A DNA stretch of 64,000 nt from Parcubacteria group bacterium M10-OD1-1 (GTDB taxonomy: Bacteria > Patescibacteriota > Minisyncoccia > Moranbacterales > UBA2206): NCBI GenBank assembly GCA_003056145.1, contig LSNL01000006.1:6119-70118 (forward strand). Reading direction: 5' to 3'. The notes under the pieces are model-generated. The model was not told the origin of the DNA, made no database searches, and saw only the letters and a program-made list of their open reading frames with translations. Shown piece by piece: positions 3,637-50,695 of the stretch. Every line of letters begins with the position of its first letter. Position 1 is the stretch's first letter. Both the position numbers and the translations under genes were made by a program.

Positions 3637-3641
3637 ATCTT

Positions 3642-4553
3642 ATGGAAAATATTTCCGACATTAAAAAAAAATACCGAGACAAATTAGATTCATTAGATCT
3701 AGAAGTTTTAATTGCACACGCAATTGGAAAATCGCGAGAAGTCGTACTCACTCACCCTGAATATATACTAACACCAAATCAAAAATTAAGAATTAATAAC
3801 TATATAGAGAGAAGAATTAAAAACGAACCTGTTGCCTATATTACCAAACATAAGGAATTTTTTGGATTGGATTTTACAGTCACTCCAAACACCCTTATTC
3901 CCCGTCCAGAAACAGAATTGCTTGTAGAAAAAACATTGGAAGAAATTTTAACATTTCACAATCAATCTTCAATAATCAATATCATTGATGTCGGCACTGG
4001 AAGTGGAAATATAATCATTTCAATTGTCGATAACCTAGCTTCTAATTTTCGCAAAAATTATAGATGTAAAGATAAAAATAAAAAAATTAAATTTTATGGA
4101 ATTGATATTTCAAAAGATGCATTACAAGTTGCGAAACAAAATGCAAAAAAAAATAATTTACAAAGTGAAATAAAATTTATTGAATCCAACTTATTGGAAT
4201 ATTTTTTAAAAAATAAAATTTATAAAGTTCATCATCTTATTCTTACTGCAAACCTCCCCTATTTATCCAAAGATATTTATGAGTCATCTATGGTTGATGT
4301 AAAAAAATATGAACCTAAGTCTGCACTCATTAGCAACCAGAATGGACTAAGTCATTATGCAAAACTTATCAGTGAAATAAAAAAACTTAAAAAATATTCT
4401 AAAATAAATTCTATTTCTTGCTTTATAGAAATAAGCCCTGAGCAAAAAAACGAGATTAAAAAAATAATACTAAATTATTTTCCGAAAGGTAAACTAAACT
4501 TTAAAAAAGATTTGTCTGGTAAATGTCGTGTAGTGATTATTAAAATAAATTAA
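3642..4553 (+). CDS. prmC: release-factor glutamine N5-methyltransferase PrmC/HemK
   Basis: FFGLDFTVTPNTLIPRPETE, SAM motif IIDVGTGSGNI, and the (N/D)PPY-type motif as TANLPY. Confidence 0.8.
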   Translation: MENISDIKKKYRDKLDSLDLEVLIAHAIGKSREVVLTHPEYILTPNQKLRINNYIERRIKNEPVAYITKHKEFFGLDFTVTPNTLIPRPETELLVEKTLEEILTFHNQSSIINIIDVGTGSGNIIISIVDNLASNFRKNYRCKDKNKKIKFYGIDISKDALQVAKQNAKKNNLQSEIKFIESNLLEYFLKNKIYKVHHLILTANLPYLSKDIYESSMVDVKKYEPKSALISNQNGLSHYAKLISEIKKLKKYSKINSISCFIEISPEQKNEIKKIILNYFPKGKLNFKKDLSGKCRVVIIKIN

Positions 4554-6195: not shown

Positions 6196-6624
6196 TTACC
6201 AAATCTTAACTTCATCACCAATCTTAAAATTATATTGACTGCTATTCTCCGCTTTTATTTCCAAAACTTCTTGAGCCAAAACTGGCGGTTTGATTATTTT
6301 AATTGAATTTTTAGAAACATTTTTAACTAAATAGACTATTCTTCCATTATTAATCCAAATAATATCTAAATTGAACTGCATCTCTTTCATCCAAAAATCA
6401 TAATGACCAGCTTGAGAAAATTTAAAAAGCATCGCGCAATGAGAACAAATATTTTTTCTTCCTCCTAATCCTCTAATTTGTTCTTGCTTGCTTAAGGCGA
6501 CTTTAGCAATAAAAACTTTTCCTTGAATATTAACTATCTTAAAGTAAGAACCATTTAAAAAAATAATAGCAATCAACACAATTAAAATTGTAATGTAATA
6601 TTTTTTTTGTTTCAGGAACGACAT
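6196..6624 (-). CDS. DUF192-family secreted/periplasmic protein
   Basis: N-terminal TM/signal, then RGLGGR...MLFKF...FWMKEM.F.LDIIW pattern typical of DUF192. Confidence 0.55.
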   Translation of the reverse strand: MSFLKQKKYYITILIVLIAIIFLNGSYFKIVNIQGKVFIAKVALSKQEQIRGLGGRKNICSHCAMLFKFSQAGHYDFWMKEMQFNLDIIWINNGRIVYLVKNVSKNSIKIIKPPVLAQEVLEIKAENSSQYNFKIGDEVKIW

Positions 6625-7646
6625 TTTTTTAAATAGTTTATTTTTTTTCTAATTAACACCAGACTTATAATAACAGCCAAGACCGCTAATATGAGAGTAA
6701 TTCCTTTTCCAATCGCTCTAGTATTTAAAGCAATAACCGCAATAATTGAGGTTACAACTAAATAACTATTAACAATTTTTTTCTGTGACCAGCCAAGTTC
6801 CATTAATTTATAATGTAAGTGATTTTTATCAGGTTTAAAAATTGATTTATGGCTTTCAATTCTTTCTCCGATGACCCAAATAAAATCTACCATCGGAATT
6901 ACTAAAACTAAAAGAGCAGTTGCAATTTTTGTTCCAGCGAAAATTGCTAAAACTGCTAAAGAGAATCCCATAAACATAGCTCCAGGAGTCCCTGCTAATA
7001 TTTTAGAAGGGTAAAAATTGAAAATAAAAAAACCTAAGATTGTACCAATTAAAATAACACTAATAATTGCCACTGGAGGTTGATTGACTTCTGGTTTTAA
7101 GCTAAGAAAAAATATCGTGCCTAAGGTAATTAAAGTAATCCCACTCGCCAAACCATCAATTCCATCAGCCCAGTTAATAGCATTCATACTTAAGACTAAC
7201 CATGAAACAACTAAGGCTACAGCTATCAAAACATAGAAACCAGTATCTAAATTTATAATTCCTCCTGTTAAAGGGTTGGTAATATAATAAATTCTTACTC
7301 CCATTATAAAAACAAAAACTGCTAAAGCAATTTGAAAAAATAATTGGGTTTTCCAAAATAGCTCTTTCAAATCATCCCAAATACCAACTATCAACAAAGC
7401 GACTGTACCAAGCATAAAACCAACTAGCTCAGTGGTTAAAACTAAATTTTTATTGAGAAGAATAACTAAATTGAAAACTAACACTAAAGCAATCCCACCA
7501 AATCTTGAAACTCCAATTTGATGAATATGTCTTGAAGAATTTCTATTGTTCCAAATTTTCTTTTTAAATAATTGAACTAATAAAATCATTGTCGCCACTG
7601 AAAGCGCAAAAGAAATAAAGAATGGATTTAAATATTGAGTTATCAT
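6612..7646 (-). CDS. glycosyltransferase family 4 polyprenyl-phosphate sugar-1-P transferase (WecA/Rfe/MraY superfamily, WecA-like)
   Basis: Polytopic membrane protein with IWDDLKEL and NAINWADGIDGLASGI motifs. Lacks the MraY PTMGG signature, so WecA-like is favoured. Confidence 0.75.
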   Translation of the reverse strand: MITQYLNPFFISFALSVATMILLVQLFKKKIWNNRNSSRHIHQIGVSRFGGIALVLVFNLVILLNKNLVLTTELVGFMLGTVALLIVGIWDDLKELFWKTQLFFQIALAVFVFIMGVRIYYITNPLTGGIINLDTGFYVLIAVALVVSWLVLSMNAINWADGIDGLASGITLITLGTIFFLSLKPEVNQPPVAIISVILIGTILGFFIFNFYPSKILAGTPGAMFMGFSLAVLAIFAGTKIATALLVLVIPMVDFIWVIGERIESHKSIFKPDKNHLHYKLMELGWSQKKIVNSYLVVTSIIAVIALNTRAIGKGITLILAVLAVIISLVLIRKKINYLKKCRS

Positions 7647-9334
7647 TTTCTCATTTTTTCAGTTACCCAAAATTCTCCAAAATATTTACCCATAAGAATT
7701 CTAGTTTGTGAATCTATTGATGGCAATGAACCTAAGAAAGGAGCAATAATCGGAACCAAAATCCATTGTAAAAGCATATAGACATTTCTCCAACGAGAAT
7801 ATTTTTTTGGTCTAGGTGGCATTAGTAAAAAACTAAGCGACATAGATACCACTAAACCAGTCATTGCTAAAGTCATCAAATAACGAGTTATCAATGGAAG
7901 ATTATGGGCTAAGACACTTTGATTGAACTGATTGCCTCCGAAAATTAAAGGTAGCCATCCTAAAATAGCTAAAATAACAGAAGCTGTCGCCCAGCTATGA
8001 TGTCCTTCTAACATTTCAAGCGCGACTTTTATTTTTTTCCGCAAACTAATTTTTTTATTAGGTGCCAACGCCCTCATTATAATAGGAAAGTTTTCAATTC
8101 CATATGCCCATCTCCGTTTTTGCTTATATTGATTTTTAATGGTTTTCCAATAGGTTTCTGCTAAAACAGCATCTAATGATATTGGCAAATAAATTGGCTT
8201 GACCTTATAATCTCCATTGTAATAAGAAAAACATTTCCAATAAATTATAGAGTCTTCACTAATCATATTGACTGGCCAAAATCCTACTCGGTAAAGAGTA
8301 TCAAAAGGCTCTGAATGTGAAGAAAAGGTTACCATTCCCTCTGTTCTGGTACTTTGAAAAATATGCCAAAAGCTAGAACCAGTTACAATAACTCTTACGA
8401 AAGCATTAGTATCCCAAAGATTATTATGATACATCGGCAAAGGTTGATAGCTTCTTTGAAGTCGTTTGGGATCGATAATATATTCATAAGTTAAGGCCGC
8501 AAAATACTGTGGATGAGCCACACTATCACAATCAAAATTAGAAAAAATAACTTTTTTAAAATCAACTCTTCTTTCCTTAAGATACTTAACTAATTCCTTA
8601 GCTGCAAAAGTGGCGTTAGATCCCTTAGCTTTCATTTCATTGTCTTTGACAATATGCGTAGTCACAATAAAATCTCTAAAGACACCTTCAAACTTATTTT
8701 TAAGATAATTCACCTTTGCTTCTCTCTGCTCTTTGGGCTCTCTTTCTTCAGTGGCCAAAAGAATTATAAACTGCTGATTAGGAAAATTAGTCTCCATTAA
8801 TGCCTGTAAAGATGGTTCTATAATATCAGCAGGCTCTCCAGCTGTCGGCAACATAACTACATGGATAATTTCTCTCCAATCTAATATTTGATTTTTAATT
8901 TTAGAAATATCTTTTACCTCCTCCAGGTACTTTTCATTTTTAATAATTTCTTTTTTAATAATTTTTTTATCTTTTCTAGTTATCTTTTCATATCCCTGAA
9001 GAGATAGCTGCATATTTTCAATTCTTTTTTGAATAAAAGTGGCGTATTTTTCTGGATGCATTATATTTTGACATCTTTCCCACCAATCAATTGATGAACC
9101 TTCTTTAAGTTTCTTATAACCTTCTACAGAATAATAAGTAATAAAAATCGTTCTATAAATCCAGTAAATATCAAAAGCTATAATAAAAATAGCCACATAG
9201 ACTGGAAAAAGAAAAGAAAAAACAAACATTCCAATTAAAGTGAACCAAGTTAAAATTCCTGGTATCATTTCAAGTGTCCTTTGAATTTTTTTCTCTTTAG
9301 GATTTGTAGTTTTTGGATTTGGAAATTTGAACAT
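7643..9334 (-). CDS. family-2 processive glycosyltransferase (cellulose-synthase-like, Q(K/R)xRW motif)
   Basis: N- and C-terminal TM helices. Cytoplasmic GT-A core with D...DCD and KQKRRWAYG (QxxRW). Overlaps the GT4 gene by 4 nt. Confidence 0.75.
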   Translation of the reverse strand: MFKFPNPKTTNPKEKKIQRTLEMIPGILTWFTLIGMFVFSFLFPVYVAIFIIAFDIYWIYRTIFITYYSVEGYKKLKEGSSIDWWERCQNIMHPEKYATFIQKRIENMQLSLQGYEKITRKDKKIIKKEIIKNEKYLEEVKDISKIKNQILDWREIIHVVMLPTAGEPADIIEPSLQALMETNFPNQQFIILLATEEREPKEQREAKVNYLKNKFEGVFRDFIVTTHIVKDNEMKAKGSNATFAAKELVKYLKERRVDFKKVIFSNFDCDSVAHPQYFAALTYEYIIDPKRLQRSYQPLPMYHNNLWDTNAFVRVIVTGSSFWHIFQSTRTEGMVTFSSHSEPFDTLYRVGFWPVNMISEDSIIYWKCFSYYNGDYKVKPIYLPISLDAVLAETYWKTIKNQYKQKRRWAYGIENFPIIMRALAPNKKISLRKKIKVALEMLEGHHSWATASVILAILGWLPLIFGGNQFNQSVLAHNLPLITRYLMTLAMTGLVVSMSLSFLLMPPRPKKYSRWRNVYMLLQWILVPIIAPFLGSLPSIDSQTRILMGKYFGEFWVTEKMRK

Positions 9335-20463: not shown

Positions 20464-21168
20464 ATGAAAATGGAAACTGCAAATCAAAATACAGAACTCA
20501 ATCCAGAAATCAAGGAAGAAGTTTTATTAAAGAAAGATTACTGGCTCGGTATTATCGTTGGATTACTTATTGGTGTAATGTTTATGCCAGTCTTGAAGGT
20601 TATTAAGCCTAATCTTTATTTTCAATTAAGGTTTATTATTATTCCTTTCTTTTTAATCGGTACGCCACTTGGCTTAATAGTTTCTCATAAAATTAGTAAG
20701 CTTAGTAAGAAATTATCGGTCATTTGGCAATTAGCTAAATTTGTCGTAACAGGGATTATGAATGTTCTAGTTGACTTTGGAACTTTAACCATCATAACTA
20801 TTTTATTAAGAAATTACTTCCATATTAATTCAACTGACATTATTCTTAGTTTAGGAATAACAGTTACTTTCTATTCTTTATATAAAGCTACCTCTTTTAC
20901 AGTTTCCAATATCAATAGTTATTTTTGGAATAAATATTGGACTTTTGATAAAAGAGGTGATAATCAATCAGAATTTATTCAATTTTTTATTGTTAGCATT
21001 GTTGGATTTATAATTAATGTGGTAGTGGCTTCGTTTGTTTTCAGTGGTTTCCAACCTTTTGCTGGAATGAACGCTGATCAATGGGGTTTAATTGGTGCAG
21101 CAGCTGGATCAATTGCTGGTCTAGCTTGGAATTTTCTTGGCTATAAATTTATCGTTTTTAAAAAATAA
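20464..21168 (+). CDS. GtrA-family membrane protein (polysaccharide-synthesis flippase-associated)
   Basis: C-terminal four-helix GtrA-like region (FVVTGIMNVLVDFG...WNFLGYKFIVFKK), preceded by two extra TM helices. Confidence 0.55.
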   Translation: MKMETANQNTELNPEIKEEVLLKKDYWLGIIVGLLIGVMFMPVLKVIKPNLYFQLRFIIIPFFLIGTPLGLIVSHKISKLSKKLSVIWQLAKFVVTGIMNVLVDFGTLTIITILLRNYFHINSTDIILSLGITVTFYSLYKATSFTVSNINSYFWNKYWTFDKRGDNQSEFIQFFIVSIVGFIINVVVASFVFSGFQPFAGMNADQWGLIGAAAGSIAGLAWNFLGYKFIVFKK

Positions 21169-21784: not shown

Positions 21785-23380
21785 ATGTCAGAAACTTTAT
21801 ATAGAAAATATAGACCAAATAATTTTTCCGAAGTTATCGGGCAAGCTCATATTGTTCGGACGCTTTCTAACTCCATTCAACATCAGCGAATTAGTCAAGC
21901 CTATCTCTTTACTGGACCTAGAGGAACCGGAAAAACTTCAGTGGCTAGAATATTTGCTAAAACAATTAATTGTGAAAATCTGCAAGGAGTTATAACTTGT
22001 GAACAATGTTCTGCTTGTCAACTTATCACTCAAGGTAAAGCCATGGATATAATTGAAATTGACGCTGCCTCTAACACTGGAGTAGATAATATTCGAGATT
22101 TACGAGAAACTATCGCTTTAGCTCCTGCCTCTCTACGTTATAAAGTTTATATTATTGACGAAGTTCATATGTTATCTACTGGTGCTTTTAACGCTCTTCT
22201 AAAAACTTTAGAAGAACCTCCCGCTCATGCTATTTTTATTCTTGCAACTACCGAAATTCATAAAGTTCCAGAAACCATCATTTCTCGTTGTCAAAAATTT
22301 GATTTTTCTCGTCTTTCCTTGCCAAATATCATTGAAAAATTATCTCTCATCGCCAAAAAAGAAAAAATAAAAGTTGAAAAAGACGCGCTTGAAATGATTG
22401 CTCTTGCAGCTGAAGGTGGAATGCGTGATGCCGAATCTCTCTTTGGTCAAATAATTTCTTTAGAAGATAAAAATATTACTCTTCAAGAGGTAGAAGAAAT
22501 TTTAGGCACTACTGATAAAAAAACCGTAGGTGAAATTGCTAAACTAATTATTGAAAAACAATCCACCCTAGCTATTACTAAAATTAATAAATTAGTTGAA
22601 GATGGCTATGATTTACAAATATTTACCAAGGCTCTTATTAATTATTTTCGTCAACTGATGCTTCTAAAAGTGAATGTCACTTTAGAAAAATATCTTCTTT
22701 CGGAAGTTCCTCAAGATCAAATAAAAAAAATGATTAAGTTAGTTCAAGTAGTCGGAATTGATGAAATAATTTTAGTTATTAATTTATTAATCCAAGCTCA
22801 AAAAGAAATTCCTAGTTCTATCCTCCCTCAACTACCGATGGAAATTGCTATTATAAAAGCTACTCATCAATTTCCTGCTCCTGAAAAAGAATTCACTCAA
22901 GAAATTGTTGAAAATAACAAATTGCCAGAAACTCCCCTCAAGACTTCCGCTGTCAATATTGAAGCAGAAGTTTCCTTAAAAGATTCTACCGGCCATTCAA
23001 TTTCTCAGCTTACGCTTGAACAAGTTACAAATAATTGGAAAAAATTATTAGTTGATATTCGTCCTTACAATCATTCTATGTCAGCTTTGCTAATTAGTTG
23101 TCAACCTCAGAAAGTTCAAGCTAATCAAATTACCATTGCTACGCCATATGAGTTTTATTGTGAAAGATTAAACGAAACAAAAAATAAATTGACAATTGAA
23201 GAAGTTTTTAGTAAAATATTACAATGTGCAGTCATAATTAATGTTGTTATTGATAAATCTATTGCTCCTAAAAAAGAAACTACTCCTCTCGGTTCAGAGA
23301 CGCCAAAAACTACCTCTAAGCAAGATTCTCTGCTTAAATCAGCCTTAGAAATTATGGGAGGACAAATAGTAGAAGAATAG
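21785..23380 (+). CDS. dnaX: DNA polymerase III subunit gamma/tau DnaX
   Basis: YRP..F.EVIGQ, Walker A GPRGTGKTS, Zn module CEQCSACQ, DEVHML box, sensor motifs. Confidence 0.9.
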   Translation: MSETLYRKYRPNNFSEVIGQAHIVRTLSNSIQHQRISQAYLFTGPRGTGKTSVARIFAKTINCENLQGVITCEQCSACQLITQGKAMDIIEIDAASNTGVDNIRDLRETIALAPASLRYKVYIIDEVHMLSTGAFNALLKTLEEPPAHAIFILATTEIHKVPETIISRCQKFDFSRLSLPNIIEKLSLIAKKEKIKVEKDALEMIALAAEGGMRDAESLFGQIISLEDKNITLQEVEEILGTTDKKTVGEIAKLIIEKQSTLAITKINKLVEDGYDLQIFTKALINYFRQLMLLKVNVTLEKYLLSEVPQDQIKKMIKLVQVVGIDEIILVINLLIQAQKEIPSSILPQLPMEIAIIKATHQFPAPEKEFTQEIVENNKLPETPLKTSAVNIEAEVSLKDSTGHSISQLTLEQVTNNWKKLLVDIRPYNHSMSALLISCQPQKVQANQITIATPYEFYCERLNETKNKLTIEEVFSKILQCAVIINVVIDKSIAPKKETTPLGSETPKTTSKQDSLLKSALEIMGGQIVEE

Positions 23381-23388
23381 AATAATAT

Positions 23389-23460
23389 TGCCCGGTCGCC
23401 AAGTGGTAAGGCACATGGTTTTGGTCCATGCATTCGGGGGTTCGAATCCCTCCCGGGCAA
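23389..23460 (+). tRNA. tRNA-Gln (anticodon UUG)
   Basis: Hand-folded cloverleaf: acceptor TGCCCGG/CCGGGCA, anticodon stem CATGG/CCATG with loop TTTTGGT, T-arm GGTTCGAATCC. Strong overall similarity to bacterial tRNA-Gln; discriminator A, CCA not encoded. Confidence 0.85.
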
Positions 23461-23555
23461 CAATCAGGCTTTTTTATTGAGCAACCTAGAAAATTCTAGA
23501 AAGTCTAAAAAAGTCATTAAAAAAACAACGTCATTCGCATTGTTCTAAAAATAAT

Positions 23556-24175: not shown

Positions 24176-26071
24176 CTATATCATAGCCTTAATAATTTTT
24201 TCTAATTTAGTAGTTGCTACTCCTAAAACACTATCTCCTCCTCCATAATATATAAAAATAGTACCATTTCTGTTAACAATTCCACAAGGAAAAACCACTT
24301 GTGAAACTTGTCCATTTTTTTCATAATCAGTTTCAGGTTCAAAAATAAAATCAGTGGTTCTAGCTAATATTAAGGTAGGATTTTTTAATTGTAATAATAA
24401 AGCACCCACCCTATAAGTACTATCATCAGCTACTCCGTGATAAAATAATAACCAACCATATTTAGTTTTTAAGGGTGGAGCTGTTATTCCTACTTTCTGA
24501 CTATCCCACATTCCAATTCTAGGACCAATAATCGGCGTAAAGCTGTTAATTTTATCAATAGAAAAATTCAATGATTTAATTGGATCCAAACAAATATGGT
24601 TATGAGCTCGATGAAAAACCATATAGTGTCCGTTAACTTTTTCTGGGAGTAAACAAGCATCTTTATTGTCTATTTTCTGAGGCGTGATAATCTCTGGTTT
24701 CTCCCAATTCCACTTTTTAGCTAAAAAATCCTTAACTGTAATATTGGTAACCGCCACTCCTGGTGGATTTACTCCATCGTAAGCCGTATAAAACATATAT
24801 AGCTTACCACCAATTTGAGTAATCCGTGGATCCTCACAACCAGAATTTCCTGGATGAGTTTTCATTTCAAATGATTCTCTCGGAATATAAATTGGAGTTT
24901 CCAATCTTTCTGAAATATTTTCTCCATTTTCAGAACTAGCATAACCCAGAACAGAAGTATCATCCTCTCCCATGGCTCGATAAATAATATGAACCTTTCC
25001 TTCTAATTCAACAGCAGCAGGATTAAACACAGCTTTATTTTCCCACAGATGCTCTTTCTTAGGAGCTAAGATAGGATTATTTCTACTTCGTAAACAAACT
25101 GGTTCTTTTTTTAAACTAGACAACAAATCATCTAAATTAACACTAGCTCGACAACAGGTAGTATCAGTTGCTCCGTAATAAATAACTAATTTTTTATCTG
25201 CAATAAAAGAACCAGAAGGAAAAACTATATTTGGTGCTTGACCAAACTCTTCATAAATTTTTTCTGGAACCAAAAGTGGACCAGAAGTTCTTGCTATTAT
25301 CTTTTTTGGATGCTCTAAATCTAACAATAAAGCTTCCACGCCAAAAATCTTATCTTCGCTAAAATAGTTTTGAATATGTGAATAGATTAATAACCAGCCA
25401 TCTTTAGTTTTGATTGGCACAGCTCCAATTTCTACTTGATCATTTTTACTTCTCTTAAGATCAATTCTATGTTCTTCAATATTTTCATACCATTTTTCCC
25501 AATAATCTGACGACCAAAGTTCTTCTAGCTCATCAAATTCAGCTAAGGCGGTTATAACAGGAGGTTTGTCAGTATTAACACTCAGCATCACAACATATTT
25601 TCCATTTATCTTTTCTGGGAAAAGAACCATTGCTTTAGCATTAAAAGGAGTGACTAAATGTTTAGATTCTATTTTTTTAAAATCTTTAGTTATAGCCACC
25701 GCCACTTTGATACCTTCAGCCGAAAAAGGAAAAACAGAAAGAGCAGTATAAAAAATATAATAAGCATCATCAATTTTTGTAACTCGAGGATCTTCACAAC
25801 CAAATTTTTCCCATTCATATTCTGGCACCACTAGTTGTCGACGTTTTTCAAAATTATGACCGTGAACATCTGAGCTTTCAGTATAGCCAACTGAAGAAAT
25901 GTGTAATTCTTCCCCGTGTACATATTCTATATTAGAAACTGCTCGATAAACAGAACGCACTTTATTTTTATCTTGAATAGGACACCAATTAAAAGCTCCA
26001 AAGGACTCCCAAGGATGATCAGTAATAGGGCTTAATAATGGGTTATGTTTTGATCGTCTAATAACCAGCAT
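24176..26071 (-). CDS. double-module GH130-family glycoside phosphorylase/hydrolase (beta-mannoside phosphorylase-like)
   Basis: Two tandem copies of the GH130/DUF377 pattern: (CEDPRVTKI...YYIFYTA...GWLLIYSHI...IYYGATD) and (AVFNPAAVE...IIYRAMGEDD...CEDPRITQIGGKLYMFYTAYDG...GWLLFYHGV...IYYGGGDS). Confidence 0.7.
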   Translation of the reverse strand: MLVIRRSKHNPLLSPITDHPWESFGAFNWCPIQDKNKVRSVYRAVSNIEYVHGEELHISSVGYTESSDVHGHNFEKRRQLVVPEYEWEKFGCEDPRVTKIDDAYYIFYTALSVFPFSAEGIKVAVAITKDFKKIESKHLVTPFNAKAMVLFPEKINGKYVVMLSVNTDKPPVITALAEFDELEELWSSDYWEKWYENIEEHRIDLKRSKNDQVEIGAVPIKTKDGWLLIYSHIQNYFSEDKIFGVEALLLDLEHPKKIIARTSGPLLVPEKIYEEFGQAPNIVFPSGSFIADKKLVIYYGATDTTCCRASVNLDDLLSSLKKEPVCLRSRNNPILAPKKEHLWENKAVFNPAAVELEGKVHIIYRAMGEDDTSVLGYASSENGENISERLETPIYIPRESFEMKTHPGNSGCEDPRITQIGGKLYMFYTAYDGVNPPGVAVTNITVKDFLAKKWNWEKPEIITPQKIDNKDACLLPEKVNGHYMVFHRAHNHICLDPIKSLNFSIDKINSFTPIIGPRIGMWDSQKVGITAPPLKTKYGWLLFYHGVADDSTYRVGALLLQLKNPTLILARTTDFIFEPETDYEKNGQVSQVVFPCGIVNRNGTIFIYYGGGDSVLGVATTKLEKIIKAMI

Positions 26072-26080
26072 AATTTATTT

Positions 26081-27925
26081 TTAATTTAAATTATTAATTT
26101 TCTCTAATAATGACAGCTCTTCATCAGCTACTTCTTTAGTCAAATCTTCCAAAAATTCATCAATATTTTCCGAAGCTACACACACCACACTATCTGCTCC
26201 TCCATAATAAACAATTAGCATATCATCTTTAATAACTGCTCCACATACATAAACTACGCCTGATTTAGCTCCTTCATTCTCATATTTCTCGGACGGTTCT
26301 AAAACAGGATACAAAGAACGATGTAAAATTTTCTGAGGATTATCATAATCTAAAATCATTGCCCCTACCTTATATCTATTTGGATCTCGTTTATCCATAG
26401 CATGATACAAAATTAACCAACCATATTTAGTTTTTAAAGGTGGAGCCCCTGCCCCTCTAACAACATTGTCCCAGCGATGTTCATCATTGCCTGGACTTTT
26501 TTTACTTTCAATTACAATATCCTGACTATCTAAATCATCTGTGTACTCTATAGCTATTTTTGGCGTAATACTATGCAAAATAGCAAACTTACCATTTATT
26601 TTTTCAGGAAAAATCATCCAATTTTTCTGGATTTCTCCTGGCTTAGAAATTAAAACTGGATGCTTCCATTTCCAAACTTTATTTAAAAAATCTTTAACAC
26701 TAATAGAAGTTAAGGCTACTCCTGGTGGCTCATTACCATTAAAAGAAACATAGGTCATATAAACACGACTTCCAATTTGAGTAATCCGTGGATCTTCACA
26801 ACCAGCCCAACTACCACCCGAAGCGTAAGAGGAAACTACAGTTTTTTTACCTTCAACCTTCCTCAAAGGTTTAGGTGGAGAAAAAATAGGTTGTTTTAAC
26901 CGCTCATCTATTGTAAAACCAGTCCGAGAAGAAGCATAACCAAAAACCGAAATTCCATTTTCCCCAATCGCCCGATATAATAAATGGATTTTATTTTCTA
27001 AGTACAGGGCTGCCGGATTAAAAGTAGCTTCTCTTTCCCATCGATTATTTTTTTTTGGTTTAATTATCGGATTATCAAAATGTTTTTTTAATGGCTTAGC
27101 ATTTTTAGGATAAGCCAATCCACTAGAAACAATGTTGATATTTTTAGAAAAAATTTCGTTCTTAGCAGACACCCAATAAACCAAAAGCGACTCACCAATA
27201 ATAGCAGAACCTAAAAATCTAGTTGGAAATTTTTCTCTATCTACTGTTTCTTCCCAAATTGGAACTTCTGATCTCCAAATAAGATCATACGGCTTATTAA
27301 AAGAAAATAAAGCTACTCCAATTTTAACGGTCGTATTTTTTTCTTTAGTATTTTTACTTTGGTATAGAACCAATATTCCTCTTTCTACCGTTAAAGTACT
27401 AACTACTTCTAAATTGCCTTCATCAAAATGGTTAGCTCTTGGAGATAATAAAGCACCTGATTTATGCCATTGAATTAAATTATTAGAAGCTGTAACATAA
27501 ATTGACTGATGTCCATAATAGGCTAAAAAGTTTTGTTTATACTTATAGTTAGAAACAACTGCAATTGTTTTTGATAATTGAACATTTTTTTCTACTACTT
27601 TAAAATGGAGTAAATCCTTAGATTTAGCAATTCTTATTTGCTCTTGCCTACGAATTATTTGTGAATACATTAAATAATACTCGTTACCATAATAAAAAAA
27701 AGAGAAAGTATTACAATTTAGTAACCGCTCTTTTTTTCCATTCTTAGAAGTTATATCTAATTCATATTTTTTAGAAAAATTAATTCCGTCCTTGCTCTGA
27801 GATAAAAAAATACTCATTCCAAAAATAGTTTTAATACCATAAAGGAGAACTATTCGTTGTTTATAATTAGCAATAGTTAAAGGATACAATTCATGAAAAT
27901 TTTGTTTGTTTTTTGATTTAAACAT
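26081..27925 (-). CDS. GH130-family protein; C-terminal canonical module with a divergent N-terminal beta-propeller-like module
   Basis: C-terminal half ATFNPAALYLENKIHLLYRAIGENG...CEDPRITQIGSRVYMTYVSFNG...GWLILYHAMD...VYYGGADS. Paralogous to the upstream gene. Confidence 0.65.
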   Translation of the reverse strand: MFKSKNKQNFHELYPLTIANYKQRIVLLYGIKTIFGMSIFLSQSKDGINFSKKYELDITSKNGKKERLLNCNTFSFFYYGNEYYLMYSQIIRRQEQIRIAKSKDLLHFKVVEKNVQLSKTIAVVSNYKYKQNFLAYYGHQSIYVTASNNLIQWHKSGALLSPRANHFDEGNLEVVSTLTVERGILVLYQSKNTKEKNTTVKIGVALFSFNKPYDLIWRSEVPIWEETVDREKFPTRFLGSAIIGESLLVYWVSAKNEIFSKNINIVSSGLAYPKNAKPLKKHFDNPIIKPKKNNRWEREATFNPAALYLENKIHLLYRAIGENGISVFGYASSRTGFTIDERLKQPIFSPPKPLRKVEGKKTVVSSYASGGSWAGCEDPRITQIGSRVYMTYVSFNGNEPPGVALTSISVKDFLNKVWKWKHPVLISKPGEIQKNWMIFPEKINGKFAILHSITPKIAIEYTDDLDSQDIVIESKKSPGNDEHRWDNVVRGAGAPPLKTKYGWLILYHAMDKRDPNRYKVGAMILDYDNPQKILHRSLYPVLEPSEKYENEGAKSGVVYVCGAVIKDDMLIVYYGGADSVVCVASENIDEFLEDLTKEVADEELSLLEKINNLN

Positions 27926-27945
27926 ATTTTTTTATTTTTATATTA

Positions 27946-28290
27946 CTAGGAAACCCGCCCATAAGCGTCTTCTATTCTAACAATATCGTTTTCATCAAAA
28001 TCACCAAAAGAAATTTCCAAAATCTGAGAATTATCTTCAGGTGCTTCTATTCGGTGAATTGTTTTTGGAGAAATAAAAAACTCTTCTCCTTCTTGGGCAA
28101 TTTTAACTTTTTCTCCTACCGTAATTCTAGGATGACCAGAAAGAATTACCCAAAATTCACTTCGCTTATGATGATACTGTAAACTTAATTGATGTCCTGC
28201 CTCAACACTAATTATTTTGACCGTAGAAATTTCATTGTGAGTAAATTGGCGAAAGGAGCCCCATGGACGATTATCATTTATAATTTTCAC
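27946..28290 (-). CDS. cupin-domain protein resembling the type II phosphomannose isomerase C-terminal domain
   Basis: Cupin motifs G(X)5HxH(X)3,4E(X)6G-like (EAGHQLSLQYHHKRSEFW) and PKTIHRIE. Confidence 0.6.
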   Translation of the reverse strand: MKIINDNRPWGSFRQFTHNEISTVKIISVEAGHQLSLQYHHKRSEFWVILSGHPRITVGEKVKIAQEGEEFFISPKTIHRIEAPEDNSQILEISFGDFDENDIVRIEDAYGRVS

Positions 28291-28486
28291 TTTTTTATTT
28301 AACTAAGAATTCTATTCTCATTATACCCCTCTTAAAAATAATTGACAAATATTACTTTCTGTTGTTAACCATATTTAATAATTGTTTAATTTTATTTCCT
28401 GGAGAAAAATTTTTTTTTGTGCTAAAATTTAAAGGTTATCTTCTCTAAGGGAAAATAACTTTTTCTAATTAAACTTCACTAATTAA

Positions 28487-29698
28487 ATGAGATTTCATCC
28501 TAAACTTAATTATATTAATGGCAATGTTTCACTTGGTTTTTCTTCTCTTTTTGCTAGTCAAACTATAATGAGAGTAGCAGCTGGATTTTTCGGATTATTT
28601 CTCCCTATCTTTTTATATAAATTATTTAACAATAATTTCGTTTATGTCGCTTACTACTATTTAGCTGGCTATTTTTTTTATGCTCTTTTTGTAGCTTGGG
28701 GAGCTAGTTTTTTAAATAGTTTTGGTTTTCGAAAAGCTTTACAGACTAGTGCTTTTTTTGGAGCACTAATTTATGTAACTCTCTATTTTACTAACGAGAA
28801 AAATTATGTTTATTTACTTTCTCTTAATGTCCTAATAGTAATTCTTTTTAGAATTTCTCATTGGATACCTTACAATGTAGACTTCGCTAAATTTACTGAT
28901 CGCCGAAATAGAGGAAAAGAAGTTAGCCTTTTAGCAGCCACTATTAATATTTCTGGCATTCTTACTCCTTTTATAGCTGGTTTCATTATCGCTAAATTTG
29001 GTTTTGGGACTCTATTTATTTTTGGAGTTTTACTTTATCTAACTTCTTATATCCCCTTAATTACCCTACCGAGAACTCACGAAAAATTTAGCTGGACTTA
29101 CCTAGAAACTTTCCAACAACTTTTTTCCAAAAAGAGAAGAGGAATTATGCTAGCCTTTGCAGCTGACGGAGCTGAAAATGTTGTTGGTTTTATTGTTTGG
29201 CCAATTTTTATCTTTAATCTTCTAAAAGGAAATTATCTTCAAATCGGAACTATTTCTACTGCTATTATTGCCGTCACCGTTGTAATGCAGTTAATAGTTG
29301 GTAAGTATGCTGACAAAAAGAACAATAAAGAAAGAATTCTTAAAATTGGTACTTATCTATATTCTCTTGGTTGGATTATAAAAATATTCATCTTAACTGC
29401 TTTTCAGATTTTTCTGGCCGATGCTTATCATAAATTAATGCGTATTTTTACTAGAACTTCTTTTGATGCCCTGACTTTTGAAATCGCTGCTGACGAAGGA
29501 CATTTTGTAGATGAGTTCTCTGTCTTACATGAAATATCTATTAGTTTAGGAAGAACCCTGATGCTAATAATAATCATCATCGCTTCCACCTTTTTATCCC
29601 TTAACTGGACTTTTGTTTTAGCCGCTATTGCTTCTTTATTACTTAATTCAATTAGAGAGAAAGTAAATATTCCTTCTCGGCTAGTTCCAAAATTATAG
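28487..29698 (+). CDS. MFS-family transporter (probable sugar importer)
   Basis: 12 predicted TM helices. Divergently transcribed from the GH130/cupin genes. Confidence 0.6.
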   Translation: MRFHPKLNYINGNVSLGFSSLFASQTIMRVAAGFFGLFLPIFLYKLFNNNFVYVAYYYLAGYFFYALFVAWGASFLNSFGFRKALQTSAFFGALIYVTLYFTNEKNYVYLLSLNVLIVILFRISHWIPYNVDFAKFTDRRNRGKEVSLLAATINISGILTPFIAGFIIAKFGFGTLFIFGVLLYLTSYIPLITLPRTHEKFSWTYLETFQQLFSKKRRGIMLAFAADGAENVVGFIVWPIFIFNLLKGNYLQIGTISTAIIAVTVVMQLIVGKYADKKNNKERILKIGTYLYSLGWIIKIFILTAFQIFLADAYHKLMRIFTRTSFDALTFEIAADEGHFVDEFSVLHEISISLGRTLMLIIIIIASTFLSLNWTFVLAAIASLLLNSIREKVNIPSRLVPKL

Positions 29699-48283: not shown

Positions 48284-50695
48284 CTAGAACCAACTAAATG
48301 GATTATACCAATGAGACTCACTCTGAGTCTTTTGAGGAGCTGAGGTTTTTTCTGATTGAGTAGGAGCAGTAGTTTCTGATTGAGTAGGAGTTGGATTACT
48401 TTCAGTTGTCTGATTACCTTCTGTTTGAGTTTGAGTCTTAGCTGAATTAGCTTGATTGGATTGAGATTGAGTATTACTTTCTGCTGAAGAGGTAGTCTTA
48501 GCTGATGTCTTAGCTGATGTCTTAGCTGATGTCTTAGCTGATGTCTTAGCTGATGATTGAATTGCTAAACCAACCTTGAGATTGCCAGTTTTGATAGTGT
48601 AGTTACCCGCTCTATCATAAGCTTTAACTTTTATAGGATATACTCCAGCTGTAAGATTGCCGGGAAGAGTAAATTCAGGAGTATGATTATTGAAAATCCT
48701 TCCTTGAAAATAAATTTTATATTTTTTTATCTTGTCGTTATCAGTAGCTAAAAACTTGATAGTTTGTCCTTTGTGATAGCTAATCGTAGTTGAAGGGAAT
48801 TGGGAGAAAATTGGTTTGAGAGTATCTGTTCTGACAATAATAGGTTTTGACAATCCTGAAGAATTACCTGCTTGATCATAAACTCTTATGTAATAAGTGT
48901 CTTTGCTAGATCTATTTTTTGGAAGTTTTATCTTCCAACTTCCATCTCTATCTATATCTACTGTTCCTATGCGATGTTTATTACCTTTTTTGTTTTTTCT
49001 ATATAACACAACGGTTCCCTTCTCTGCTTCTGAGTTTGTTCCTCTGAGAGTGGGTTTTCTCTTCTTTGAGAAAATAATGGAATGTTTCTTCTTGTTTAAG
49101 CTAGTACCGTTGTGACTTGATAATTTAATGCTACTTCTTTTACTACTAGGAGCTGTCTTGTCATAAAGAATATTTAAAGTTGTGCTATCACTCTCATAAT
49201 CAATATAGTCTCGGAATTTAACATAGAGCTTTTTATTCCCTTCAGAGTTAAAAGTATATACTTTAGTTTTTTGATATGGTTCCCAAGTGGCTCCAGAGAA
49301 ATCAGAGTTTTCACTAATCATCATATCTTTAGCGTCTGTAGCAGTAAAGTTAAGAGTCACTTGGTTATCTGTTGTAACAGAAGGATAGTTGATGGAAATG
49401 TTTTTTGGACCGAGATGAAAGATAAGAACACGGTTATTAGTATTAGTATCAGAAACAAAAAGCTTGTTATTAATCGCGAAAAGCATTGAAACATTACTTG
49501 TTTTTTTAGCTGATAATCCAACTGAGTTAGTTGTTAAATCAGGTTGTCCTAAGACATAATCAGCGGAAATATCATTGGTAGTAGGAATGTGAGAAAAAAT
49601 AGTTACTCTAGAATTACTCCATTCACCGATAAATATTTTTCCTTGTTGTTCAATAACGCTTTGAGGATATTCCTCGGTTTTTGCCGTTGGACCAGTTAAT
49701 CCTTGATTCGGTGAACCACTTACCATATCTGGTTGACCGATAACCGTATCAGCGGAAGCATCATTAGTAGTAGGAATATGATTATAGATAAGAGTTCTTG
49801 AATTTCCATTATCAGCAATGTATAATTTTCCATCATTATTAATATAAAGACCGCTAGGATCACTTAAAGTTTTAGCACTAACAGTTCCTCCTTGATTAGC
49901 AGAGTTGCTAATCATATCCGGCTGTCCAATCACTACATCAGCGGAAGCATCATTGGTGGTAGGAATGTGATTATAGATAAGAACACGATTATTGCCCCGG
50001 TCAAGAATAAACATTTTACCTTGATATACAAAAACATCGTGAGGATAATCTATCGTATTAGCGTTGGCTGTTGCTTCTCCTTGATTAGTAGAGTTGCTAA
50101 TCATATCCGGCTGTCCAATCACTACATCAGCGGAAGCATCATTGGTAGTAGGAATGTGATTATAGATAAGCACTCTATTATTACCTCCACGGGATGGTCC
50201 ACCTTCCCCATCGCAAATAAATAGTTTTCCTTGATAAACAAAAATCCCAGTTGGACCAAAAAGAGTATTCGCTCCCACACTTCCACCTTGATCGGCATCT
50301 CCACTCGTAAAATCTTTCTGTCCAATAACTACATCAGCGGAAGCATCATTAGTAGTAGGAATGTGATTATAGATAAGCACTCTATTGCTTCTTTCTTCTG
50401 CTATAATTAATTTCGTTCCATCGCTCCAAATTCCTTTAGGAAAATCTATTGTATTCGCTCCAACACTCCCTCCTTGGTTTGCATCGCCACTTGTGAAATT
50501 TGGCTGACCAATTACTACATCCGCATTCTTATCAATTCCAATAGCTTGAGCCGAATTAGTATTAACAAAAGCTAGACCAACGATTAATAATGCTACTCCA
50601 GCAATACTTTTAATTCTTTGGTTTAGTTTTAATTTTGAATTTTGTTCTTCTAAATTGCTAGAATTCAATTTCATTTTTTGCAATACTTTTTTCAT
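48284..50695 (-). CDS. secreted NHL-repeat beta-propeller surface protein (803 aa) with Ig-like region, AKTS repeats, Thr/Ser/Gln-rich tail and C-terminal HWYNPFSWF
   Basis: Signal peptide ...AGVALLIVGLAFVNTNSAQA. Six or more repeats of NRVLIYNHIPTTNDASADVVIGQPD. Confidence 0.7.
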   Translation of the reverse strand: MKKVLQKMKLNSSNLEEQNSKLKLNQRIKSIAGVALLIVGLAFVNTNSAQAIGIDKNADVVIGQPNFTSGDANQGGSVGANTIDFPKGIWSDGTKLIIAEERSNRVLIYNHIPTTNDASADVVIGQKDFTSGDADQGGSVGANTLFGPTGIFVYQGKLFICDGEGGPSRGGNNRVLIYNHIPTTNDASADVVIGQPDMISNSTNQGEATANANTIDYPHDVFVYQGKMFILDRGNNRVLIYNHIPTTNDASADVVIGQPDMISNSANQGGTVSAKTLSDPSGLYINNDGKLYIADNGNSRTLIYNHIPTTNDASADTVIGQPDMVSGSPNQGLTGPTAKTEEYPQSVIEQQGKIFIGEWSNSRVTIFSHIPTTNDISADYVLGQPDLTTNSVGLSAKKTSNVSMLFAINNKLFVSDTNTNNRVLIFHLGPKNISINYPSVTTDNQVTLNFTATDAKDMMISENSDFSGATWEPYQKTKVYTFNSEGNKKLYVKFRDYIDYESDSTTLNILYDKTAPSSKRSSIKLSSHNGTSLNKKKHSIIFSKKRKPTLRGTNSEAEKGTVVLYRKNKKGNKHRIGTVDIDRDGSWKIKLPKNRSSKDTYYIRVYDQAGNSSGLSKPIIVRTDTLKPIFSQFPSTTISYHKGQTIKFLATDNDKIKKYKIYFQGRIFNNHTPEFTLPGNLTAGVYPIKVKAYDRAGNYTIKTGNLKVGLAIQSSAKTSAKTSAKTSAKTSAKTTSSAESNTQSQSNQANSAKTQTQTEGNQTTESNPTPTQSETTAPTQSEKTSAPQKTQSESHWYNPFSWF

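What the first reader, a model, noticed from the sequence alone, without database searches (positions are those of the whole stretch)
24176..29698. Mannoside-utilisation locus: two ~600-aa double-module GH130 proteins, a PMI-type cupin and a divergent MFS transporter
GH130 enzymes (beta-1,4-mannosylglucose/mannooligosaccharide phosphorylases, beta-1,2-mannosidases) are normally single-domain at ~300-400 aa. Here both paralogues carry two GH130-like modules in tandem; the second gene's N-terminal module is strongly diverged. Co-localisation with a mannose-6-P-isomerase-like cupin and a sugar MFS gives a complete uptake-phosphorolysis route. The tandem-module architecture is unusual and could process branched or host-derived mannans.
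Basis: partly seen in the sequence, partly recalled or inferred. Interest (0 to 1): 0.55.

Follow-up and report, generated by a model that had tools for sequence, protein, structure and literature searches.

The report
Three-type GH130 mannoside operon in Patescibacteria
Two adjacent genes each encode two beta-mannoside-enzyme (GH130) modules, but only one of the four looks like a normal phosphorylase, and this uncharacterised gene set, usually found with mannose-phosphate enzymes, is conserved in hundreds of tiny-genome Patescibacteria species.

Summary
Genes A (24176-26071, 631 aa) and B (26081-27925, 614 aa) each hold two GH130 modules, and B's N-module is very diverged but GH130-derived.

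The four modules are not equivalent:
- A_C ("type P") has the full beta-1,2-mannoside phosphorylase residue set.
- A_N ("type X") keeps the proton donor and sugar-binding residues. It has lost all three basic phosphate ligands and has an invariant Glu where the mannosidase BT3780 has its candidate base Glu268.
- B_C ("type S") has lost two of the three phosphate ligands.
- B_N has no catalytic residues.

Types S, X and P always travel together. S lies immediately upstream of X-P in 76 of 80 species-level loci, and some proteins fuse S-X-P. At least 532 species genomes, almost all Patescibacteria, encode a relative.

The cupin (44/80) and a PMM-like HAD-IIB protein (30/80) recur beside the pair. 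The MFS never does (0/80), so the "uptake" part of the reading is unsupported.

Most likely this is a cytoplasmic beta-1,2-mannoside-processing system feeding fructose-6-P, combining a phosphorylase with a hydrolase-like module. GH130-GH130 fusions are listed in CAZy but uncharacterised, so this is a new variant of a known kind.

The parts
28320..28348 (-). Best sigma-70-like promoter match in the region (TTGTCA-17-TATAAT, 11 of 12), about 30 nt upstream of the cupin start
   Evidence: This is a consensus match only, not shown to be functional.
27946..28290 (-). 114-aa standalone cupin of the type II mannose-6-P isomerase C-terminal type (GTG start); first gene of the apparent operon
   Evidence: PF01050 86.5 bits, Cupin_2 37.2 bits. 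Matches only the C-terminal part of TIGR01479 GMP_PMI. Nearest solved structures are ~113-aa cupins, one deposited as mannose-6-phosphate isomerase (7zvm). Found within 5 kb of the GH130 pair in 44 of 80 loci.
27092..27925 (-). B_N (protein B aa 1-278): degenerate, catalytically dead GH130 module
   Evidence: PF04041 47.4 bits. HHalign 99.3-99.7% to the other modules; EDPR is replaced by N73-T74-F-S and the +1-subsite Arg by Gly. Low conservation (0.38 against 0.69 for B_C). Confidently all-beta in the AF2 model. Present in only 27 of 76 type-S genes.
26081..27091 (-). B_C (protein B aa 279-614): 'type S' GH130 module. Keeps the proton donor and beta-1,2 determinants; two of the three basic phosphate ligands are replaced (S452, V489), with an Arg shifted by one position (R490)
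   Evidence: PF04041 146.7 bits; residue tables; best PDB hits 9fj8 and 7fip.
25097..26071 (-). A_N (protein A aa 1-325): 'type X' GH130 module. Keeps proton donor E93-D94, R43, K146 and D303; all three basic phosphate ligands are replaced (S164, Q/H212, S231). Has an invariant E214 at the BT3780 Glu268 position, an invariant D168, and a helical insertion at 182-201
   Evidence: PF04041 152.2 bits; HHalign register; conservation; alignment with BT3780 and 3taw fragments; AF2 secondary structure.
24176..25096 (-). A_C (protein A aa 326-631 plus stop): 'type P' canonical beta-1,2-mannoside phosphorylase-like module
   Evidence: PF04041 198.6 bits. Best PDB hits 7fip (1.3e-57) and 9fj8. R365, E413, D414, K470, D471, H487, R488, G528 and H545 are 80/80 and K526 is K71/R9. 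Same signature as Teth514_1788/1789.
28487..29698 (+). Divergently transcribed 403-aa MFS permease. Listed because the finding included it; the evidence does not tie it to the GH130 genes
   Evidence: MFS_1 48.6 bits only, no sugar-transporter family. No PDB relative at E<=1. Adjacent only in contigs of the same species; 0 of 80 related loci.

Best explanation
The cupin, B and A genes form one operon for a cytoplasmic system that processes beta-1,2-linked mannosides. The system is built from three co-inherited but functionally different GH130 module types, plus one dead module.

- A_C (type P) is a genuine inverting phosphorylase. It releases alpha-mannose-1-phosphate from beta-1,2-manno-oligosaccharides, reversibly.
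- A_N (type X), fused to A_C in a fixed orientation, still binds and protonates the same kind of substrate. [quoted passage not shown] It most likely uses water instead of phosphate, cleaving bonds or chain ends that the phosphorylase cannot.
- B_C (type S) is a third catalytic paralogue with only part of the phosphate site. Its chemistry is unresolved.
- B_N is a non-catalytic appendage. Other lineages replace it with a poly-lysine tail or a membrane anchor.

Mannose-1-P is then taken to mannose-6-P by a PMM-like HAD-IIB enzyme (in the operon in many relatives, elsewhere or absent here) and to fructose-6-P by the cupin.

Shown: domain identities, residue patterns, co-inheritance, fusion, operon layout. 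Inferred: substrate, the hydrolase assignment for A_N, direction of flux, PMI activity of the cupin.
For: Module identity and fold.

Type P has every residue that PMC7660257 and PMC12814180 use to predict a beta-1,2 phosphorylase, invariant in 80/80 modules and identical to Teth514_1788/1789.

Type X: R43, E93, D94, K146, D168, E214 and D303 are 79/79. Position 164 is S/T/A/G and never basic; 212 is H/Q; 231 is S/A/C. The signature persists to ~31% identity and in standalone proteins. E214 shares a column with BT3780 Glu268 in two MAFFT modes, where phosphorylases have an invariant Gly. Cuskin 2015 shows that loss of the basic ligands plus Glu227/Glu268 defines the GH130 hydrolases.

Co-function of A and B: type S is immediately upstream of A in 76/80 loci, and in 68/69 with enough upstream sequence. 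Triple fusions S-X-P exist (P0047, P0048, P0057).

Link to mannose phosphates: cupin in 44/80 and PMM-like in 30/80 loci.

Cytoplasmic location: neither N-terminus has a hydrophobic leader (sequence). The same was noted for GH130 in a Microgenomates genome (PMC7143001).

Operon: 20-nt and 9-nt gaps, a promoter-like site upstream of the cupin, and no terminator-like site between the genes.
Against: - No enzyme of this family has been assayed.
- Type X lacks an acidic residue at the BT3780 Glu227 position (V/A165) and has no signal peptide, unlike the known GH130 hydrolases.
- By overall similarity, type X is nearer the phosphorylases (9fj8 147.7 bits) than the hydrolases (4onz 54.4 bits).
- Cytoplasmic hydrolysis gives up the ATP saving that phosphorolysis offers.
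- No transporter is conserved with the operon, so the source of the substrate is unknown.
- The window itself has no PMM-like gene.
- The HAD-IIB neighbour could be a sugar phosphatase rather than a mutase.
- Whole-protein NCBIfam scores fall below the equivalog cutoffs (431.9 against 450 for beta-1,2-mannobiose phosphorylase).
- I could not inspect model coordinates, so the position of E214 relative to C1 is inferred from alignment only.
Confidence: 0.55

Rival explanations
1. Storage cycle. The operon builds and mobilises an intracellular beta-1,2-mannan reserve, like Leishmania mannogen. Fru-6-P goes to Man-6-P (cupin), then Man-1-P (PMM-like), then to polymer by reverse phosphorolysis (type P) and/or by nucleotide-sugar-dependent transfer (types S or X). 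The same enzymes release Man-1-P again on demand.
For: - No transporter is conserved with the operon.
- All proteins are cytoplasmic.
- Every characterised beta-1,2 GH130 phosphorylase also has weak GDP-Man transferase activity (PMC12814180).
- In the related GT108 family, strict transferases lack the phosphate-pocket Arg, and an R-to-H change abolishes phosphorylase activity (PMC10913872). Types S and X also lack that Arg.
- An RfaE-domain-II-like sugar-phosphate nucleotidyltransferase sits upstream of the PMM-like gene in 25/80 loci, and a ribosome hibernation factor just downstream of A in 27/80 loci.
- GT108 mannogen enzymes are detectable structural relatives (E~1e-9).
Against: - No beta-1,2-mannan has been reported from any Patescibacterium in the library searched.
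- No GDP-mannose pyrophosphorylase is seen in the operon.
- The RfaE-like enzyme's nearest model acts on a beta-heptose-1-P, not alpha-Man-1-P.
- Type X carries a Glu in the nucleophile pocket, which fits water activation better than binding the diphosphate of a nucleotide sugar.
- The HPF, Fmt and Def neighbours may be plain synteny.
Confidence: 0.2
2. All three catalytic modules are phosphorylases that differ only in chain-length or linkage preference, as with Teth514_1788 and Teth514_1789. This is essentially the first reader's reading.
For: - All three keep the proton donor, the Glu/Lys beta-1,2 determinants and the +1-subsite Arg.
- Their best PDB hits are the two Thermoanaerobacter phosphorylases.
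- Two adjacent GH130 phosphorylases with different chain-length specificity are a known arrangement (PMC4264767).
- Type S keeps the His ligand and has an Arg one residue from the lost Lys/Arg position; 7 of 74 type-S modules have the canonical R452 and 7 have K489, and one search shows no module with only one of the two.
Against: - Type X has none of the three basic ligands in 79/79 modules, and a Glu fills the pocket.
- Most type-S modules have Ser/Asn/Gly/Ala and Val/Thr/Ile/Leu at two of the three ligand positions.
- PMC7660257 and PMC4599007 use the R/H pair as the criterion for phosphorylase against hydrolase.
Confidence: 0.08
3. A_N and B_C are pseudo-enzymes: carbohydrate-binding or scaffolding modules that hold the substrate or fix the oligomeric state for the single active phosphorylase module. 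The fusion would be a covalent version of the GH130 homodimer.
For: - GH130 phosphorylases work as dimers or hexamers, and in Uhgb_MS the dimer interface shapes the donor site (PMC12814180).
- The A model has pTM 0.90, which implies a fixed inter-module packing.
- B_N shows that dead GH130 modules are tolerated in this system.
Against: - The proton-donor Asp and all -1/+1 subsite residues are invariant in types X and S (79/79 and 74/74), whereas the truly dead B_N lost them and is poorly conserved.
- Type X also occurs as a standalone ~325-aa protein.
- New invariant acidic residues (E214, D168) suggest a gained function rather than decay.
Confidence: 0.12

Closest known systems
Teth514_1788 / Teth514_1789 (Thermoanaerobacter sp. 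[quoted passage not shown]
   Same: Best sequence and structure matches for A_C, A_N and B_C. A_C shares every catalytic, phosphate-binding and beta-1,2-determinant residue. Both systems have adjacent paralogous GH130 genes, no signal peptides, and a genomic link to mannose-1-P metabolism (PMC4264767).
   Different: The Thermoanaerobacter enzymes are single-module (~300 aa) homodimers, and both are phosphorylases. Their cluster has an ABC importer, a GH5 and a Man-1-P guanylyltransferase. Here the modules are fused, two of the three catalytic types have altered phosphate sites, no transporter is conserved, and the partners are a cupin and a HAD-IIB PMM-like protein.
BT3780 / BACOVA_03624 (Bacteroides GH130 beta-1,2-mannosidases; PDB 5A7V, 3QC2)
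   Same: Like these, type X (A_N) has lost the three basic phosphate ligands. It keeps the proton-donor Asp, the adjacent Glu and the beta-1,2 Lys, and has a Glu in the column of Glu268.
   Different: No acidic residue at the Glu227 column (V/A165). No signal peptide. Much lower overall similarity than to the phosphorylases (54 bits or less against 148). NCBIfam BT3780 model scores 187.6 against a cutoff of 550. Type X is fused to a phosphorylase. This is probably an independent phosphorylase-to-hydrolase-like conversion.
GH130-GH130 bimodular sequences listed in CAZy
   Same: Same two-module architecture. PMC7660257 notes four such sequences in its dataset, among 6 multimodular of 1592 CAZy entries.
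   Different: Those were only counted, not analysed per module or characterised. That paper states the two modules of each fall in the same similarity-network node. Here the two modules have different catalytic signatures and belong to a conserved three-type system.
Leishmania GT108 mannogen enzymes (MTP1-7) and the dual-activity GH130 Uhgb_MS
   Same: Same five-bladed propeller fold (Foldseek E~1e-9). Paralogue sets mix phosphorylase and non-phosphorylase members that act on cytoplasmic beta-1,2-mannan. Loss of the phosphate-pocket Arg goes with loss of phosphorylase activity (PMC10913872; PMC12814180).
   Different: Only 14-19% identity. GT108 strict transferases have His at the Arg position, not Ser/Thr plus a pocket Glu. 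No evidence here for a nucleotide-sugar donor or for a mannan reserve.

Membership tests
GH130 (Pfam PF04041, five-bladed beta-propeller) | Each module scores above the Pfam gathering score | tested here: met
   A_N 152.2, A_C 198.6, B_N 47.4 and B_C 146.7 bits against a cutoff of 26.
GH130 (Pfam PF04041, five-bladed beta-propeller) | GH130 fold | tested here: met
   AF2 models have pLDDT 95 and 88. Foldseek target-normalised TM is 0.90-0.92 to Teth514_1788 for A. B_N on its own was not fold-searched, but HHalign gives 99.3-99.7% and its PDB sequence hits are all GH130.
GH130 (Pfam PF04041, five-bladed beta-propeller) | Catalytic proton-donor Asp (UhgbMP D104 / BT3780 D142) | tested here: met
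   Met for A_N (D94), A_C (D414) and B_C (D378), invariant in 79, 80 and 74 modules. NOT met for B_N, where the aligned residue is T74.
GH130 beta-1,2-mannoside phosphorylase (EC 2.4.1.339/340; Teth514_1788/1789 type) | Basic phosphate ligands: Arg (UhgbMP R168), His (H231) and Lys/Arg (Uhgb_MS R242) | tested here: met
   Met for A_C only: R488 80/80, H545 80/80, K526 K71/R9. Not met for A_N (S/T164, H/Q212, S231). Not met for most B_C (S/N/G/A452; V/T/I/L489; only H508 is kept).
GH130 beta-1,2-mannoside phosphorylase (EC 2.4.1.339/340; Teth514_1788/1789 type) | Beta-1,2 linkage determinants: Glu next to the proton donor, and Lys (BT3780 K199) | tested here: met
   E93/K146, E413/K470 and E377/K434 are invariant. 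Criteria from PMC7660257 and PMC4599007.
GH130 beta-1,2-mannoside phosphorylase (EC 2.4.1.339/340; Teth514_1788/1789 type) | NCBIfam equivalog NF052550 score above its cutoff | tested here: not met
   Protein A 431.9 and protein B 258.1 bits against a cutoff of 450. This model is built for single-module proteins.
GH130 beta-1,2-mannoside phosphorylase (EC 2.4.1.339/340; Teth514_1788/1789 type) | Pi-dependent cleavage of beta-1,2-manno-oligosaccharides and synthesis from alpha-Man-1-P | not testable with these tools
   Needs an enzyme assay.
GH130 beta-1,2-mannosidase (BT3780 type) | Absence of the three basic phosphate ligands | tested here: met
   Met for A_N (type X) in 79/79 modules, except one R at position 212.
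GH130 beta-1,2-mannosidase (BT3780 type) | Glu pair acting as catalytic base (Glu227 and Glu268) | tested here: inconclusive
   The Glu268 column holds E214, invariant in type X. The Glu227 column holds V/A165, not acidic. An invariant D168 lies 3 residues further on, in an extended loop, but its spatial position could not be checked.
GH130 beta-1,2-mannosidase (BT3780 type) | Signal peptide / extracytoplasmic location | tested here: not met
   The N-terminus MLVIRRSKHNPLLSP has no hydrophobic leader. This is by inspection only; no predictor was run.
GH130 beta-1,2-mannosidase (BT3780 type) | NCBIfam equivalog NF058598 above its cutoff | tested here: not met
   187.6 bits against a cutoff of 550, and the best stretch lies in A_C, not A_N.
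Type II phosphomannose isomerase (cupin; C-terminal domain of GMP/PMI) | Match to PF01050 above the gathering score | tested here: met
   86.5 bits against 23.6. The full bifunctional model TIGR01479 scores 85.3 against 373 because the guanylyltransferase part is absent.
Type II phosphomannose isomerase (cupin; C-terminal domain of GMP/PMI) | Man-6-P to Fru-6-P isomerase activity | not testable with these tools
   Only indirect support: co-location with GH130 genes in 44/80 loci and with a PMM-like gene. The nearest solved cupins include one deposited as mannose-6-phosphate isomerase (7zvm).
MFS sugar transporter | Match to a sugar-porter family, or conserved linkage to the sugar-processing genes | tested here: not met
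   Only the generic MFS_1 (48.6 bits) and a weak EntS match. No PDB relative. 0 of 80 related loci have it.

The most novel reading that the evidence does not exclude
Patescibacteria keep an intracellular beta-1,2-mannan (mannogen-like) carbohydrate reserve. It is built and mobilised by the conserved S/X/P GH130 trio together with the cupin PMI and the PMM-like enzyme. The phosphate-site-remodelled modules would act as the synthase or trimming/transglycosylating partners of the phosphorylase. This would be the first such reserve cycle in bacteria and a core energy-buffering pathway of these minimal-genome organisms.
Probability: 0.17. Interest if true: 0.8.

Novelty: new variant of a known kind. 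Interest (0 to 1): 0.55.

Why it matters
Patescibacteria have very small genomes and poorly understood carbon metabolism. Even so, at least 532 species keep about 3.7 kb of GH130 coding sequence in a fixed arrangement, often with mannose-phosphate enzymes. That points to a central sugar pathway nobody has characterised.

For enzymologists, the locus offers a natural, covalently linked pair: a phosphorylase and a sibling module whose phosphate pocket has been rebuilt with a Glu at the hydrolase base position. A third, intermediate variant sits next door. This is a ready-made system for studying how GH130 switches between phosphorolysis, hydrolysis and possibly transfer. It also gives precise mutants to make (E214Q, D94N, D414N, R488A, S452R).

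For annotation, it shows that labelling these proteins 'beta-1,2-mannobiose phosphorylase' or 'GH43/DUF377' hides four different module states.

Tried and rejected
- **GH43/GH32 origin for B_N:** rejected. GH43 scores 17.9 bits, below its cutoff; all PDB hits are GH130; HHalign gives 99%+.
- **MFS as the pathway's importer:** rejected on conservation (0/80) and lack of any sugar-family signal.
- **PAP2/UppP-like and GtrA neighbours as functional partners:** PAP2 appears in 1 of 80 loci. GtrA was not searched in the 80 loci; it is seen only in contigs of the same species. Both treated as coincidental.
- **My first residue mapping for A_N was wrong.** I initially thought the beta-1,2 Lys was lost. 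Counting from the PEKING motif and HHalign corrected it to K146.
- **D168 as the counterpart of BT3780 Glu227:** not supported. Glu227 aligns with V/A165, and Teth514 enzymes also have an Asp in the D168 column.
- **Supplementary residue-equivalence tables** of PMC12814180 and PMC7660257 are not held.
- **Model coordinates are not exposed,** so I could not measure the E214-to-C1 distance or compare the inter-module interface with the Teth514_1788 dimer.
- **Other mannose genes in the window:** scans of 20 other ORFs, plus searches with PMM-like, nucleotidyltransferase and HPF queries, found nothing mannose-related.
- **Literature:** searches linking GH130 to CPR/Patescibacteria found only passing CAZyme counts.

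Full report
**1. What is in the sequence**

The region holds four ORFs exactly as reported:

| Gene | Coordinates | Strand | Length |
|---|---|---|---|
| A | 24176-26071 | - | 631 aa |
| B | 26081-27925 | - | 614 aa |
| Cupin | 27946-28290 | - | 114 aa (GTG start) |
| MFS protein | 28487-29698 | + | 403 aa |

The cupin, B and A are separated by 20 and 9 nt. The best promoter-like match in the region (11 of 12) lies about 30 nt upstream of the cupin, and no terminator-like site separates the three genes. The window is about 30% G+C and otherwise full of housekeeping genes: DnaX, L10, L7/L12, S16, SMC, Mur ligase, UvrA, NrdD and ComEC. Identical copies of A lie on contigs of GCA_003056095.1 and related assemblies. 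The closest named relatives are Candidatus Moraniibacteriota.

**2. The tandem GH130 observation is correct**

- Scanned half by half, all four modules pass the Pfam GH130 threshold of 26 bits: A_N 152, A_C 199, B_N 47 and B_C 147 bits.
- B_N has no BLAST similarity to the others. Profile-profile comparison nevertheless gives 99.3-99.7% probability over 244-261 columns.
- B_N's only sequence hits in the PDB are GH130 proteins, and its GH43 score is below threshold.
- AlphaFold2 models are confident: A has pLDDT 95 and pTM 0.90; B has pLDDT 88 and pTM 0.75.
- Each half of A superposes on Teth514_1788 with target-normalised TM 0.90-0.92 and rmsd 1.8 A. No solved chain spans both modules.
- The pTM of 0.90 implies a fixed packing of the two propellers. 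Whether it copies the GH130 homodimer interface could not be tested.

**3. The four modules are in four different catalytic states**

The literature gives residue criteria in UhgbMP numbering: proton donor D104; phosphate ligands R168 and H231; and the +1 subsite residues, which are E and K in beta-1,2 enzymes (PMC7660257). Uhgb_MS adds K184, R202 and R242 as phosphate-pair ligands (PMC12814180). GH130 hydrolases lack the three basic ligands and use Glu227/Glu268 (PMC4599007).

I mapped these positions by phmmer alignments to solved enzymes, by HHalign between module families and by MAFFT. I then counted them in the top database hits and in 80 species-level loci.

| Module | Proton donor and sugar-binding residues | Phosphate-site positions |
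|---|---|---|
| A_C (type P) | R365, E413-D414, K470-D471, all 80/80 | H487-R488 80/80, K526 K71/R9, G528 80/80, H545 80/80; same as Teth514_1788/1789 |
| A_N (type X) | R43, E93-D94, K146, D303, all 79/79 | Arg position S/T/A/G164; Lys/Arg position H/Q212; His position S/A/C231; new invariants D168 and E214 |
| B_C (type S) | R318, E377-D378, K434 | H508 kept (71/74); Arg position S39/N18/G5/A3 (R in 7); Lys/Arg position V/T/I/L (K in 7); Arg at the next residue (R490, 67/74) |
| B_N | EDPR replaced by N-T-F-S; +1 Arg replaced by Gly | Not applicable; conservation 0.38 against 0.69 for B_C |

Type X also has a 5-residue and a 17-residue insertion. The longer one is helical in the model.

**4. 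Type X resembles the hydrolases at the key position**

The alignments printed for B_N happened to give fragments of BT3780 (5a7v) and 3taw. With a chain offset of 4, Glu227 is the first E of YWGEE and Glu268 is the E of LTECGPP.

- In two MAFFT modes, Glu268 falls in the same column as type X E214. Phosphorylases and type S have an invariant Gly there.
- That column is two residues after the lost Lys/Arg ligand. On a strand it should therefore face the same pocket.
- The Glu227 column is V/A165 in type X, so the match to the hydrolase signature is partial.
- Overall, type X is far closer to the beta-1,2 phosphorylases (148 bits to 9fj8) than to the hydrolases (54 bits or less). An independent conversion from a phosphorylase ancestor is therefore the simplest reading.

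In GT108, the related transferase family, replacing the phosphate-pocket Arg by His abolishes phosphorylase activity. The presence of Arg does not guarantee that activity (PMC10913872). Loss of the Arg therefore argues against phosphorolysis in types X and S, but does not by itself say what they do instead.

**5. The three catalytic types are inherited as a set**

- The database search returned 6998 relatives of A at E<=1e-10; the best are ~630-aa double modules from Moraniibacteriota, Paceibacterota, Campbellbacteria and others. B has a similar family.
- A scan of species-representative genomes found at least 532 genomes with a relative, almost all Patescibacteria.
- In the best 80 loci, a type-S gene lies immediately upstream of A, on the same strand, in 76 loci. 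That is 68 of the 69 loci with at least 1.3 kb of upstream sequence.
- Only 27 of those type-S genes carry B_N.
- Three proteins of 971-996 aa are fusions in the order S-X-P. This is classic evidence that B_C and A act together.
- Type X also occurs as a standalone ~325-aa protein, and once in the order P-X.

**6. Neighbours**

- Within 5 kb of A, the cupin occurs in 44 of 80 loci.
- A HAD-IIB protein that passes the eukaryotic-type PMM model occurs in 30 of 80.
- The MFS occurs in 0 of 80, and the PAP2 gene in 1 of 80.
- The MFS has no sugar-family match and no relative among solved structures.
- An unbiased clustering of neighbours found no recurrent transporter, kinase or GDP-mannose pyrophosphorylase. 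It did find an RfaE-domain-II-like nucleotidyltransferase (25 loci, upstream of the PMM-like gene) and a ribosome hibernation factor (27 loci, just downstream of A), alongside housekeeping genes.
- The window itself has no PMM-like, nucleotidyltransferase or HPF homologue.

**7. Interpretation**

The best-supported reading is a cytoplasmic beta-1,2-mannoside-processing system. Type P phosphorolyses the substrate to alpha-Man-1-P. Type X, covalently attached, most likely hydrolyses what P cannot. Type S contributes a third, unresolved activity. The cupin, with a PMM-like enzyme where present, connects mannose phosphates to fructose-6-P.

This matches the logic proposed for Thermoanaerobacter (PMC4264767), but with different partners and without an importer. 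The lack of any conserved transporter, the reversibility of the phosphorylase, the transferase side-activity of all known beta-1,2 GH130 phosphorylases (PMC12814180) and the Leishmania precedent keep a storage-cycle reading alive. I give it about 0.2.

Two readings are less likely. In one, all modules are ordinary phosphorylases; in the other, X and S are mere scaffolds. The first is disfavoured because the basic ligands are absent in essentially every type X module. The second is disfavoured because the catalytic Asp is invariant in X and S, whereas the truly dead B_N lost it.

**8. Novelty**

GH130-GH130 proteins are listed in CAZy and were counted once (PMC7660257). A Microgenomates genome paper noted two intracellular GH130 enzymes (PMC7143001).

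I found no description of any of the following in the library searched:
- the module-specific catalytic states;
- the S/X/P set and its fusions;
- the conserved operon;
- its spread across Patescibacteria.

It is a new variant of a known enzyme family rather than a new kind of system, and no activity has been measured.

Noticed in passing
P0047 (996 aa), P0048 (971 aa), P0057 (978 aa); not in the window: Triple-module GH130 proteins in the order type S - type X - type P. In effect, B's C-module is fused to the whole of A, without B_N.
   Followed up: yes
L028, L032, L050, L051, L067, L069, L077 and others (type-S genes upstream of A); L047 548-1729 and L073 8864-9967: Where type S lacks the dead B_N module, it carries a 30-125-aa extremely Lys/Arg-rich N-terminal tail (41 of 41 complete ORFs have an extension of at least 30 aa; median K+R fraction 0.43). 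In two Adlerbacteria the extension is a hydrophobic TM-like segment instead. The appendage looks like a localisation device (polyanion or membrane).
   Followed up: partly
e.g. L038 6708-7328, L028 11794-12351: Two further recurrent neighbours of the operon in relatives: an RfaE-domain-II-like adenylyl/cytidylyltransferase upstream of the PMM-like gene (25 of 80 loci), and a ribosome hibernation-promoting factor just downstream of A (27 of 80 loci). Neither is in the window.
   Followed up: partly
P0248, P0253, P0254, P0262, P0270 (about 325 aa); P0242 (645 aa): Type X also exists as a standalone single-module protein with the same signature, and once in reversed order (type P then type X).
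   Followed up: partly
L016, L017, L074 (Omnitrophota), L052 (Planctomycetia), L055 (Bacteroidetes), L006: Some MAGs labelled as non-Patescibacteria carry copies 54-57% identical to A, with the same B-A arrangement. Either contigs are mis-binned or the operon has been transferred. L006 also has a PMT-family mannosyltransferase and a GT2 about 2.5 kb downstream.
   Followed up: no
window 23389-23461 (+): tRNA-Gln (anticodon TTG) between dnaX and the PAP2 gene. The 102-aa ORF listed at 23155-23463 (-) overlaps it and is probably spurious.
   Followed up: yes
window 1029-4553: A BRO-N domain protein, a tyrosine integrase and a PrmC-like/N6 methyltransferase lie together. This could be a remnant of a mobile element.
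   Followed up: no
window 48284-50695 (-): 803-aa protein with NHL repeats and a bacterial Ig-like (Big_13) domain. It lies in the only stretch with positive GC skew and among the higher G+C values (0.344) in the window.
   Followed up: no
window 1-64000: GC skew is negative in 31 of 32 2-kb bins (cumulative -5.96), and most large ORFs are on the minus strand. This fits a single replichore arm.
   Followed up: no
window 6612-9334 (-): A GT4-family (PF00953, MraY/WecA-like) protein and a 563-aa GT2_3 glycosyltransferase are adjacent, and a GtrA-like protein sits at 20464-21168. These are envelope-glycan genes with no shown link to the GH130 operon.
   Followed up: no
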